Shown: piece by piece, positions 7,226 through 7,805 of the stretch
Layout: every line of letters begins with the position of its first letter
Numbering within the stretch: position 1 is the stretch's first letter
Source: a virus
Lineage: Duplodnaviria; Heunggongvirae; Uroviricota; Caudoviricetes
Length of the DNA: 8,847 nucleotides
IMG/VR virus record: IMGVR_UViG_2534681993_000021
Coordinates: 1 to 8,847 of that record
Direction: 5' to 3' (one strand)
The notes under the pieces: model-generated
What the model was told of the DNA's origin: nothing
The model's input: only the letters and a program-made list of their open reading frames with translations
Databases searched by the model: none
Position numbers and translations under genes: made by a program

Positions 7226-7254
7226 AGATTAGCCATGACTAACAATTTGGTCAA
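7226..7254 (-). promoter_or_regulatory. Leftward early promoter (PL / dicB-operon-like) with embedded operator
   Basis: On the minus strand: -35 TTGACC (7254-7249), 17-nt spacer, -10 TAATCT (7231-7226). The 14-bp operator TTAGCCATGACTAA (7229-7242) overlaps the spacer and -10. A second copy, TTTGCCATGACTAA (7267-7280), lies just upstream of the -35. Confidence 0.5.
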
Positions 7255-7292
7255 GTATTTTTGTTTGCCATGACTAACATTTTGGGCAACCA

Positions 7293-7323
7293 AAAAGATA
7301 ACGCATTGATTGCGTTATCTTTT
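7293..7323 (-). terminator. Hairpin terminator at the 3' end of the repressor gene
   Basis: Perfect 13-bp inverted repeat AAAAGATAACGCA (7293-7305) / TGCGTTATCTTTT (7311-7323) with a 5-nt loop. The minus-strand transcript has a 9-bp core stem followed by a U-run. It overlaps the dicA-like stop codon (7315-7317). Confidence 0.5.
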
Positions 7324-7722
7324 GTTTGTTCGTTGACGGGCTTTTAATAACTCTTCAAAGAGTTTGTTGAAATTTTTTACTCGGGCGCGCATCTCGGTGA
7401 GCTGAGCATCCTGTTCTGATTCAGGCAATGCATTAAAAAGCTCAAGGAGCTCATGTTCTTTGGGGGATAGAGCAACTGGCTCCTCAATAGGTGGTGATGG
7501 CTGCTTGTCTTCATCGCCAAATAGAATCCATGTTGGCGAGCACTGCAGTACTTTGCTGAGGGCAAAAAGATTCTTTCCTGTAGGTTCGCTATCATCCCGC
7601 TCCCATTGTGAAACCGATACGTGAGAAATTTTCAGGACTTTAGCAAGAGACCTTTGGGTGTATTTGAGGTTTTTTCGGCGATATCTAATGCGTTCGCCAA
7701 TGGTTAAATTTTTTGTATCCAT
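7315..7722 (-). CDS. dicA: Phage repressor, HTH XRE family, DicA-like (CI-type)
   Basis: 135 aa. MDTKNLTIGERIRYRRKNLKYTQRSLAKVLKISHVSVSQWERDDSEPTGKNLFALSKVLQCSPTWILFGDEDKQ... reads as a near-identical match to E. coli DicA as I recall it, with the same length. Divergent from a Cro-like gene. Confidence 0.9.
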   Translation of the reverse strand: MDTKNLTIGERIRYRRKNLKYTQRSLAKVLKISHVSVSQWERDDSEPTGKNLFALSKVLQCSPTWILFGDEDKQPSPPIEEPVALSPKEHELLELFNALPESEQDAQLTEMRARVKNFNKLFEELLKARQRTNKR

Positions 7723-7805
7723 AGTTAGCTAATGCTAAATCTTATTGACTATGTTTTTGTTAACATCTATTTTGTTAGTCATGGCTAACAATCAAGGTGC
7801 TTTAA
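7723..7805. promoter_or_regulatory. Divergent promoter/operator region between repressor and cro-like gene
   Basis: Rightward promoter: -35 TTGACT (7745-7750), 17-nt spacer, -10 TATTTT (7768-7773). Operator inverted repeat TTGTTAGTCATGGCTAACAA (7772-7791) sits just downstream of the -10. Weaker operator-like palindrome TTAGCTAATGCTAA (7725-7738) abuts the dicA start. SD AAGGTG (7794-7799) precedes ATG 7806. Confidence 0.55.

What the first reader, a model, noticed from the sequence alone, without database searches (positions are those of the whole stretch)
7229..7788. Repeated 14-bp operator TTAGCCATGACTAA at two promoters flanking the repressor gene
The identical 14-mer occurs at 7229-7242 (plus orientation) and 7775-7788 (inverted), with a near copy at 7267-7280 and a related palindrome TTAGCTAATGCTAA at 7725-7738. 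The half-sites TTAG/CTAA fit a dimeric HTH repressor. One pair sits in the repressor/cro divergent region and one pair overlaps the leftward early promoter downstream of the repressor gene, giving a two-locus operator layout like Qin dicA/dicB.
Basis: seen in the sequence. Interest (0 to 1): 0.5.

Follow-up and report, generated by a model that had tools for sequence, protein, structure and literature searches.

The report
DicA repressor operators of Qin-like prophage
The repeated palindromes are the binding sites of the prophage repressor DicA at the two promoters flanking its gene, an arrangement already described and partly tested in the E. coli K-12 Qin prophage, so the finding is correct but ordinary.

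Summary
TTAGCCATGACTAA lies at 7229-7242 and, inverted, at 7775-7788. A one-mismatch copy lies at 7264-7277 (not 7267-7280), and TTAGCTAATGCTAA at 7725-7738. None occurs elsewhere in the window, against about 0.06 expected.

The window is an E. coli STEC-type lambdoid prophage. Its repressor (7315-7722, minus strand) is 93% identical to K-12 Qin DicA, and its Cro-like neighbour is 97% identical to DicC.

The site at 7772-7791 is the orthologue of K-12 operator Oc, TTGTTAGTCATAACTAACAA. DicA binds Oc in vivo, and one A-to-C change abolishes binding. The sites at 7226-7245 and 7261-7280 bracket the -35 of the dicBp-type early-left promoter, which DicA represses 22-fold in K-12.

Across about 50 haplotypes the half-sites TGTTAG/CTAAC never change. 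The centre is always YYATRR and varies only by transitions. In heteroimmune relatives, different palindromes occupy the same three positions.

The fourth palindrome does not fit this pattern. The identical K-12 sequence, if it is the published 'Oa', did not bind DicA.

This window's operon has lost dicB and dicF by deletion.

Verdict: already known; low interest.

The parts
7772..7791 (.). Right operator, orthologue of K-12 Oc: TTGTTAGTCATGGCTAACAA. It overlaps the last 2 nt of the dicC -10 and the inferred dicC transcription start (about 7780).
   Evidence: Aligns base for base with K-12 Oc; the half-sites are identical and 2 central bases differ. The K-12 Oc sequence and in-vivo DicA binding are from PMC3441716. 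Half-sites are invariant in 48 haplotypes.
7226..7245 (.). Promoter-proximal left operator. On the minus strand it reads TTGTTAGTCATGGCTAATCT. It fills the spacer of the early-left (dicBp-type) promoter, and its right half-site is the -10.
   Evidence: The 18 nt GATTAGCCATGACTAACA are identical in K-12. It shows the same invariant/variable pattern as Oc. The same position is occupied in heteroimmune types B, C and D and in Citrobacter, Serratia and L133.
7261..7280 (.). Promoter-distal left operator. On the minus strand it reads ATGTTAGTCATGGCAAACAA, with an imperfect right half-site. Its centre is 35 bp from the proximal site, just upstream of the -35.
   Evidence: The left half-site is invariant and the centre is YYATRR in all haplotypes. 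The 35-36 bp spacing is conserved across immunity types.
7226..7254 (-). Early-left promoter (dicBp/PL equivalent): -35 TTGACC (7254-7249), 17-nt spacer, -10 TAATCT (7231-7226).
   Evidence: Read from the sequence. TTGACC is invariant in 48 haplotypes. A TTGnnn-17-TAAnnT arrangement recurs in five of the six other lineages examined; type B needs an 18-nt spacer for this reading. It falls below the threshold of the consensus scanner. The transcription start is not mapped here.
7293..7323 (-). Intrinsic terminator of the repressor gene: a 13-bp stem followed by a T run. It separates dicA transcription from the early-left promoter.
   Evidence: RNA fold -16.7 kcal/mol, z = -5.2, and 0 of 200 shuffles fold as well. 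In K-12 the outer stem is kept but the inner stem and loop differ; I did not fold the K-12 sequence.
7315..7722 (-). Repressor gene, a DicA allele (135 aa). It has an HTH_3 N-terminal domain and no S24 peptidase domain.
   Evidence: 93% identical to K-12 DicA. Pfam HTH_3 E = 6e-16. The N-terminal domain matches P22 C2 structures 1adr/2r1j/3jxb at E = 2e-20.
7725..7738 (.). Fourth palindrome, TTAGCTAATGCTAA, probably the published 'Oa'. Its centre is 9 bp upstream of the repressor ATG. It is conserved but is not a consensus DicA site.
   Evidence: It is nearly invariant, including its centre, in 48 haplotypes; one flanking column varies. The identical K-12 sequence, if it is 'Oa', did not bind DicA in vivo. 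A site in the same place, TTAGAATTACCTAA, is identical in types B and C.
7745..7773 (+). dicC (Cro-like) promoter: -35 TTGACT, 17-nt spacer, -10 TATTTT.
   Evidence: Consensus scan. The homologous K-12 promoter was confirmed by 5' RACE (PMC3441716).
7806..8036 (+). dicC, a Cro-like second repressor (76 aa).
   Evidence: 97% identical to K-12 DicC. Pfam P22_Cro E = 1e-11.
6996..7148 (-). ydfA-like gene (DUF1391), the first gene of the repressed early-left operon.
   Evidence: Pfam DUF1391 E = 9e-30. Annotated as ydfA in K-12 at the homologous place.

Best explanation
Window 7226-7791 holds the immunity switch of a Qin-type lambdoid prophage. The repressor DicA has a P22-C2-like HTH domain and presumably acts as a dimer. 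It binds three 20-bp inverted repeats with consensus TTGTTAG-YYATRR-CTAACAA.

One site (7772-7791, Oc) covers the end of the -10 and the start point of the rightward dicC (cro-like) promoter. Bound DicA therefore shuts off dicC. In K-12 it also activates its own divergent promoter.

Two sites (7226-7245 and 7261-7280) bracket the -35 of the leftward early promoter, which lies just beyond the dicA terminator. The proximal site fills the spacer and supplies the -10, so bound DicA excludes RNA polymerase from the ydfA-led operon.

DicC probably uses the same operators from the other side of the switch.

Shown directly: the sequence anatomy, the orthology, and the conservation patterns. Taken from K-12 experiments: DicA binding to Oc, repression of dicC and dicBp, and auto-activation. 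Inferred: binding of this allele's DicA to each site here, the exact early-left start point, and dimeric stoichiometry.
For: Orthology: the DNA is 89% identical to K-12 dicC-dicA-ydfA, DicA is 93% identical and DicC 97%.

Oc: the window site differs from K-12 Oc only at two central bases. DicA binds K-12 Oc in vivo, and a single A-to-C change in the CTAACAA half abolishes binding. That A is present in all three window sites.

Promoters: Oc overlaps the -10 of dicC, whose start was mapped by RACE. DicA represses dicC and activates dicA. Deleting dicA raises dicBp 22-fold.

Footprint within the family: in 48-52 distinct haplotypes, positions 2-7 (TGTTAG), 10-11 (AT) and 14, 15, 17 are invariant or nearly so at all three sites. 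All 24 distinct central hexamers are YYATRR. Positions 8, 9, 12 and 13 vary by transitions only: 12 of 12 columns, against 16 of 42 other non-coding variable columns, Fisher p = 1.2e-4.

Specificity: TTAGYYATRRCTAA occurs twice, at the same two positions, in nearly all of the 87 loci that carry it. All E. coli-type loci have the pair 545-546 bp apart. It occurs nowhere else in those loci and never in the 7 other loci fetched by then. The chance expectation is 0.33 per 5.5 Mb.

Co-variation with the repressor: relatives with 53-65% identical repressors carry different palindromes at the same three positions. Citrobacter, Serratia and L133 repressors (65-75% identical) keep the SHVSVSQWER recognition helix. 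They keep TTAG-YYATRR-CTAAC-type sites in flanks that show little other similarity by eye, with two variant sites noted under evidence against.

Structure: the N-terminal domain matches the P22 C2 DNA-binding domain, which has been solved on operator DNA.
Against: No binding experiment exists for this allele. For the two early-left sites there is none even in K-12: Reg-Seq's authors list the DicA site at dicB as low-evidence with unknown location.

The distal left site has an imperfect right half (CAAACA).

One site in L133 has centre CCTTAG rather than YYATRR, and the Serratia right operator has TGTAAG rather than TGTTAG.

The early-left -10 (TAATCT) is a poor consensus match, the scanner did not call it, and its start point is unmapped.

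The literature speaks of three operators in each region. I find one consensus site on the right and two on the left.

I could not count the motif across the complete host genome.
Confidence: 0.9

Rival explanations
1. One reading: all four palindromes, including 7725-7738, are DicA operators. The divergent region would then hold a lambda-like multipartite OR, with the site at the dicA start acting as a weak, cooperative, OR3-like autorepression site.
For: The site has the TTAG-N6-CTAA core. It sits 9 bp upstream of the dicA ATG, where binding would block dicA. It is nearly invariant in 48 haplotypes. dicA promoter activity fell when DicA was supplied from a multicopy plasmid (IC50 36 against 73), which would fit autorepression. 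The published view is that there are three operators.
Against: The identical K-12 sequence, if it is 'Oa', did not bind DicA in the in-vivo operator assay (data not shown there). Its centre CATTAG is not YYATRR, and its flanks are TTTAG and CTAACT rather than TGTTAG and CTAACA. Its complete invariance differs from the transition-tolerant pattern of the three consensus sites. The equivalent site is identical in types B and C although their right operators differ.
Confidence: 0.2
2. The fourth palindrome (7725-7738) is the preferred site of DicC (the Cro-like protein) rather than of DicA. DicC bound there would shut off dicA, as Cro does at lambda OR3.
For: DicC overexpression represses dicA in O157:H7, as cited. 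The site changes together with the DicC helix-turn-helix type. Type A has IRLASLYSWKG with TTAGCATTAGCTAA. Types B and C share VRLASVAAWG and share TTAGAATTACCTAA, although their DicA N-termini and right operators differ. The site lies over the dicA start region.
Against: There are only three or four independent immunity types, so linkage rather than co-adaptation could explain the pattern. The block also holds the dicC -35 and whatever serves as the dicA promoter and ribosome-binding site, and these alone could explain its conservation. No DicC binding data exist.
Confidence: 0.3
3. The repeats are non-functional: a chance similarity, or a leftover of a duplication or recombination site.
For: Any given 14-mer recurs by chance in very large collections: 106 of 119 viral contigs carrying the exact 14-mer have no DicA-like gene.
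Against: The sites are strongly enriched in the window. They occupy fixed positions in 87 loci. Their half-sites are invariant among variable neighbouring columns. Their positions are conserved while their sequences are replaced in heteroimmune relatives. Experimental binding and a point-mutant phenotype exist for the K-12 orthologue.
Confidence: 0.02

Closest known systems
dicA-dicC-dicBp immunity region of the Qin cryptic prophage, E. coli K-12 (Bejar et al. 1986 and 1988; Yun et al. 2012, PMC3441716; Ragunathan et al. 2023, PMC10448788)
   Same: The genes are orthologous (DicA 93%, DicC 97%, ydfA present) and in the same order and orientation. The Oc half-sites are the same. The 18 nt at the dicBp-proximal operator are identical. 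The dicC promoter and the terminator position are the same.
   Different: Two central bases of Oc differ (TCATGG against TTATGA in window orientation). The distal left site reads CAAACA rather than CATACA. There are ten amino-acid changes in DicA, none in the recognition helix. This prophage still has its integrase, excisionase and replication genes, but has lost dicB, dicF and the ydfD-like gene through a deletion of about 1.58 kb.
Phage P22 immC region (c2 repressor, cro, OR and OL operators)
   Same: The repressor N-terminal domain is a close homologue (E = 2e-20). DicC matches the P22_Cro family. Repressor and cro are divergent, with operators over the promoters, and a second operator set lies at the leftward early promoter. 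From memory, the P22 operator core TTAAG-ATAT-CTTAA has the same 14-bp frame as TTAG-N6-CTAA. Also from memory, its non-contacted central bases tune affinity (Koudelka and Williams laboratories). That would fit the transition-only centre seen here.
   Different: DicA has 135 aa against 216. It has no S24 peptidase domain or Ala-Gly site, so it is not cleaved through RecA. I find one consensus site on the right and two on the left, not three and three. The left operators lie only about 0.5 kb from the right one, immediately downstream of the repressor gene.
Heteroimmune DicA-family cassettes in E. coli and Klebsiella prophages (for example PPompW_EH2201, a record named 'Escherichia phage Rac', and Klebsiella phage ST405-OXA48phi1.2)
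   Same: The repressor is again 135 aa and the Cro 75-76 aa. The three operator positions, the 35-36 bp spacing at the left promoter, and the ydfA-type leader are the same.
   Different: The operator sequences differ: CCTTAG-ATTTTC-CTAAGG, TTGTTAG-ACTTTT-CTAACA and TTAAG-type. The recognition helix is (A/S)HVTISQWER instead of SHVSVSQWER.

Membership tests
Qin-type DicA/DicC immunity region | A DicA orthologue: a short (135 aa) HTH_3 repressor lacking an S24 autocleavage domain | tested here: met
   93% identity over all 135 aa. Pfam finds only HTH families. There is no Ala-Gly dipeptide in the sequence.
Qin-type DicA/DicC immunity region | A divergently transcribed dicC (P22_Cro-type, 76 aa) across a short intergenic region | tested here: met
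   97% identity. The intergenic region is 83 bp and 97% identical to K-12.
Qin-type DicA/DicC immunity region | The Oc operator: a 20-bp inverted repeat TTGTTAG-N6-CTAACAA overlapping the dicC -10 and start | tested here: met
   7772-7791. The half-sites are identical to K-12 Oc, and the A whose change to C abolishes binding is present.
Qin-type DicA/DicC immunity region | A DicA-repressed leftward promoter (dicBp) with operator-like sites directly downstream of dicA | tested here: met
   -35 TTGACC and two sites at 7226-7245 and 7261-7280. The proximal 18 nt are identical to K-12. Repression of this promoter is documented only in K-12.
Qin-type DicA/DicC immunity region | The repressed operon encodes the division inhibitors DicF (sRNA) and DicB | tested here: not met
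   Rfam finds no DicF. Compared with the near-identical FWSEC0002 prophage, the segment carrying dicB and the ydfD-like gene is deleted. This concerns the cargo of the operon, not the operators.
Qin-type DicA/DicC immunity region | Physical binding of DicA to the sites | not testable with these tools
   Only K-12 in-vivo data for Oc exist. There are no data for this allele or for the left sites.
Lambda/P22-type SOS-inducible immunity region | A repressor with a C-terminal S24 peptidase domain cleaved through RecA | tested here: not met
   No S24 match. In K-12, induction is RecA-independent and works through the antirepressor Rem.
Lambda/P22-type SOS-inducible immunity region | Tripartite operators (three repressor sites) at both OR and OL | tested here: inconclusive
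   There are one consensus site and one palindrome with a non-conforming centre on the right, and two sites on the left. The literature names three per region by sequence, but Om and Oa did not bind DicA.

The most novel reading that the evidence does not exclude
The switch may be asymmetric, which has not been shown for DicA/DicC. On this reading DicA uses only the three YYATRR sites. The nearly invariant fourth palindrome at the dicA start (7725-7738) is a DicC-specific operator that shuts off dicA. The transition-only variation at the operator centres would then be affinity tuning by indirect readout, setting different derepression thresholds among the several DicA-type prophages that share one repressor pool in STEC genomes. 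A further unexcluded idea is DicA-mediated looping between the right and left operators, 546 bp apart. However, the distance is 587, 570 and 551 bp in other lineages, with no common helical phase.
Probability: 0.25. Interest if true: 0.35.

Novelty: already known. Interest (0 to 1): 0.12.

Why it matters
These sites decide whether the prophage's early genes stay silent. In intact relatives the leftward operon encodes DicB and DicF, which block host cell division and alter phage susceptibility.

Matches to this region occur in 3,881 of 5,426 complete E. coli genomes, at up to 8 places per genome, although many of these are partial matches. Prophages that share these operators are therefore expected to be cross-regulated by one DicA pool.

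For this window the practical conclusions are modest. The immunity switch looks intact, it has K-12 Qin specificity, and what it controls here is a truncated operon without dicB or dicF.

The consensus TTGTTAG-YYATRR-CTAACAA, and the placement of two sites around the early-left -35, are a small refinement. They could fill the 'binding location unknown' entry for DicA at dicB.

Tried and rejected
1. Looping or helical phasing between the right and left operators. The centre-to-centre distance is 546 bp (52.0 turns) in type A and 547 bp in type C, but 587, 570 and 551 bp in types B and D and in Citrobacter. There is no conserved phase, so this gives no positive support.

2. A third left operator. 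I found nothing with the consensus between the terminator and the distal site, or downstream of the -10.

3. A structured RNA in the conserved ydfA leader. The single-sequence fold is not better than shuffles (z = -0.15). RNAalifold on five lineages gave no covariation. There was no Rfam hit even at E up to 1.

4. A whole-collection scan for the exact 14-mer as a specificity test. Only the 13 hits next to DicA-like genes were informative.

5. The original Bejar 1986 and Cam 1988 papers are not held. I therefore could not check the published coordinates of Om, Oa and the three left operators, and my equation of 7725-7738 with 'Oa' is an inference from the names.

6. The genome-contig scan returned only 5 loci. 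Wider diversity came from phage records and viral contigs instead.

Full report
**1. Observation**

- TTAGCCATGACTAA is at 7229-7242 on the plus strand, and its reverse complement is at 7775-7788.
- A one-mismatch copy, TTTGCCATGACTAA, lies at 7264-7277.
- TTAGCTAATGCTAA lies at 7725-7738.
- With up to three mismatches the 14-mer matches nowhere else in the 8.8-kb window: 6 strand-matches against 0.73 expected, and 0 of 200 shuffles reach 6.
- TTAG-N6-CTAA occurs three times against 0.06 expected.
- The exact shared match is 17 nt, and the natural unit is a 20-bp inverted repeat, TTGTTAG-N6-CTAACAA.

**2. What the locus is**

The window is part of a lambdoid prophage of a Shiga-toxin-type E. 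coli.
- Positions 6900-8100 are 100% identical to a prophage of O145:NM strain FWSEC0002 and about 89% identical to the dicC-dicA-ydfA segment of the K-12 Qin prophage.
- The 135-aa HTH protein on the minus strand (7315-7722) is 93% identical to DicA.
- The divergent 76-aa protein (7806-8036) is 97% identical to DicC and matches P22_Cro.
- The first leftward gene (6996-7148) is ydfA (DUF1391).
- Integrase, excisionase and an exonuclease lie further left. A YdaT-like gene and replication genes lie to the right.
- The DicA N-terminal domain matches the P22 C2 DNA-binding domain, which has been solved on operator DNA (1adr, 2r1j, 3jxb; E = 2e-20).
- There is no S24 peptidase domain.

**3. Correspondence with the experimentally studied K-12 sites**

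- Yun et al. (PMC3441716) give K-12 Oc as TTGTTAGTCATAACTAACAA.
- They show in vivo that DicA binds Oc and that a single A-to-C change in the CTAACAA half abolishes binding.
- They show that Oc overlaps the -10 of the RACE-mapped dicC promoter.
- They show that DicA represses dicC and is required for transcription of dicA.
- The window site 7772-7791 aligns base for base with Oc and differs at two central positions only.
- By homology the dicC start is near 7780, inside the operator.
- On the other side of dicA, the 18 nt GATTAGCCATGACTAACA are identical in K-12.
- Ragunathan et al. (PMC10448788) show that deleting dicA raises dicBp 22-fold. They describe the two regions as lambda-like OR and OL.
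- Reg-Seq's authors nevertheless list the DicA site at dicB as low-evidence with unknown location.

**4. Anatomy, read in the repressor's orientation**

- The dicC -35 TTGACT and -10 TATTTT lie at 7745-7773.
- Oc immediately follows and overlaps that -10.
- The fourth palindrome is centred 9 bp upstream of the dicA ATG.
- A strong hairpin with a T run (7293-7323; -16.7 kcal/mol, z = -5.2) begins within the last codons of dicA and should terminate dicA transcripts.
- Then come, in order: the distal operator ATGTTAGTCATGGCAAACAA (7280-7261), the -35 TTGACC (7254-7249), and a 17-nt spacer filled by the proximal operator TTGTTAGTCATGGCTAATCT (7245-7226).
- The last six bases of the proximal operator, TAATCT, are the -10. 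A repressor bound at the proximal site would therefore occlude the polymerase.
- This promoter falls below the consensus scanner's threshold, and its start is unmapped. The assignment rests on conservation.

**5. Comparative footprint within the immunity type**

I collected 83 loci with DicA 92-100% identical to the window's. They came from viral contigs, K-12, phage PhiR42_1 and others, and gave 48-52 distinct haplotypes.

At all three sites:
- positions 2-7 (TGTTAG), 10-11 (AT) and 14, 15, 17 are invariant or nearly so;
- positions 8, 9, 12 and 13 are polymorphic;
- all 24 distinct central hexamers are YYATRR.

All 12 central variable columns show transitions only. Among the other non-coding variable columns, 16 of 42 do (Fisher p = 1.2e-4).

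This shared signature argues that the three sites are equivalent targets of one protein. It also suggests that the central bases are read only as purine or pyrimidine. That would fit the indirect readout known, from memory, for P22 and 434 operators.

The exact identity of the 14-mer at the two loci occurs in only 10 of 52 haplotypes. It is a feature of this allele, not of the system.

TTAGYYATRRCTAA occurs twice, at fixed positions, in nearly all of the 87 loci that carry it. The pair is 545-546 bp apart in all E. coli-type loci. It occurs nowhere else in those loci and never in the 7 other loci fetched by then. The chance expectation is 0.33 per 5.5 Mb.

**6. Comparison across immunity types**

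Some E. coli prophages share the ydfA and ydaT flanks but carry a repressor only 55-65% identical. In them, homology to the window breaks off just beside the left operators. Reading repressor-sense, each type has palindromes at the same three places:

| Type | Right operator | Left distal | Left proximal |
|---|---|---|---|
| B | CCTTAGATTTTCCTAAGG | ACTTAGGTTTTTCTACAC | TCTTAGGTTATTCTAAAT |
| C | TTGTTAGACTTTTCTAACAT | TTGTTAGACCAATCTAACAA | ATGTTAGGTTATTCTAAATT |
| D (Klebsiella phage, 53%) | CCTTAGGTTTTCCTAAGG | ATTTAAGTTTTTCTACAA | ACTTAAGTTATTCTAAGT |

- The right operator is always centred 57-59 bp from the repressor ATG.
- The two left sites are always 35-36 bp apart around a TTGnnn -35.
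- The proximal right half always supplies a TAAnnT -10.
- Types B, C and D have the recognition helix (A/S)HVTISQWER. Type A has SHVSVSQWER.
- Conversely, Citrobacter (75%), Serratia (65%) and viral contig L133 (67%) keep SHVSVSQWER and keep TTAG-YYATRR-CTAAC-type sites in flanks that show little other similarity by eye.
- There are two exceptions: one L133 site has centre CCTTAG, and the Serratia right operator has TGTAAG.

Operators therefore travel and change with the repressor, as expected for an immunity cassette.

**7. The fourth palindrome**

TTAGCTAATGCTAA (7725-7738) differs from the other three sites.
- Its centre is not YYATRR.
- Its flanks depart from TGTTAG and CTAACA.
- It is nearly invariant across haplotypes, centre included; one flanking column varies.
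- The K-12 sequence is identical.
- Yun et al. report that the two other sequence-predicted operators, Om and Oa, did not bind DicA in their assay (data not shown there).
- I could not read Bejar 1988 to confirm that this is 'Oa'. The equation is inferred from the names.
- In types B and C the equivalent site is identical (TTAGAATTACCTAA), although their right operators and repressor N-termini differ. B and C also share the DicC helix-turn-helix.

That is weak support for a DicC-preferred, OR3-like site. It could equally reflect constraint from the dicC -35 and the dicA promoter and ribosome-binding region. A weak cooperative DicA site is not excluded: dicA promoter activity fell when DicA was overproduced.

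**8. Mechanism and confidence**

Best explanation, confidence about 0.9:
- DicA dimers at Oc repress dicC and support dicA transcription.
- DicA at the two left sites occludes the early-left promoter.
- The terminator insulates that promoter from dicA read-through.
- DicC acts on the same region to flip the switch. From memory, Bejar et al. (1986) isolated dicC as a second gene able to complement the dicA1 mutation; only the paper's title was available to me.
- Because the repressor lacks an autocleavage domain, derepression is expected to be through an antirepressor (Rem in K-12) or by stochastic switching. That part lies outside the window.

**9. Novelty and score**

This is an allele of a system described by sequence in 1986-1988 and tested in 2012 and 2023, so it is already known.

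What this analysis adds is minor:
- an explicit consensus;
- the placement of two, not three, consensus sites at the left promoter;
- evidence that the fourth palindrome is a different kind of element;
- the co-variation across immunity types.

Interest: 0.12.

**10. Limits**

- I could not count the motif over the complete host genome.
13 of 119 hits lay 60-89 nt from a DicA-like gene.
- There are no binding data for this allele.

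Noticed in passing
window 6492-6508 (junction); ORFs 4221-6680(-) and 6433-6996(-): Compared with the otherwise 99.9-100% identical FWSEC0002 prophage, about 1.58 kb is missing (L002 6015-7592), with a 17-nt overlap at the junction. The lost segment held dicB, the dicF region, a ydfD-like DUF1482 gene and the 5' end of the exonuclease gene. What remains is two overlapping fusion ORFs, and Rfam finds no DicF. The DicA-controlled operon here has lost its division inhibitors.
   Followed up: partly
window 808-1794(+), and window 1-2532 generally: A gene for the type III effector protease NleC (Peptidase_M85, E = 8e-113) lies just beyond the integrase end of the prophage. This flank is unrelated to the rspB flank of the same prophage in FWSEC0002 but matches strain CFSAN027343. 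The prophage therefore sits at a different site, or next to an effector-carrying element.
   Followed up: partly
window about 7149-7219, minus strand (leader of the early-left operon): The leader CATCAAGACACCGCACGGTGTTCTCAGCAAACAGTTCCGCTACCCCGGCGTTAAGGGG is conserved from about the predicted start point, even in heteroimmune prophages whose promoter and operators differ. More distant lineages keep a hairpin with a GCA(C)-containing loop and a GTTCCGC box. RNAalifold gave no covariation, the fold is not better than shuffles, and there is no Rfam match. Its function is unexplained.
   Followed up: partly
window 7293-7323: A 13-bp perfect hairpin begins within the last codons of dicA. It has T runs on both strands, so it looks like a bidirectional terminator (z = -5.2). 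In K-12 the outer stem is kept but the inner stem and loop differ.
   Followed up: yes
L149 2360-2490 (IMGVR_UViG_3300031867_000683): An unrelated viral contig carries four GTTAG-N6-CTAAC palindromes inside a larger inverted repeat (GGGGGAGGGTCGAG...CTCGAGGGTCCCCC). There is no DicA-like gene in the 7.5 kb held. It may be the operator cluster of an unrelated regulator, or another kind of palindromic site.
   Followed up: no
window 8020-8036: The YdaT-family gene (8020-8571) starts 17 nt before the dicC stop codon, so the two are probably translationally coupled. The same overlap is annotated in K-12 and FWSEC0002.
   Followed up: no
L008/L010/L012, L009/L013, L014: At least four immunity types of 135-aa DicA-family repressors exist in enterobacterial prophages within the same gene framework. 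Types B and C share the recognition helix and nearly the same proximal left operator but differ in their right operators. This hints at partial cross-immunity, or at specificity set by the N-terminal arm.
   Followed up: partly
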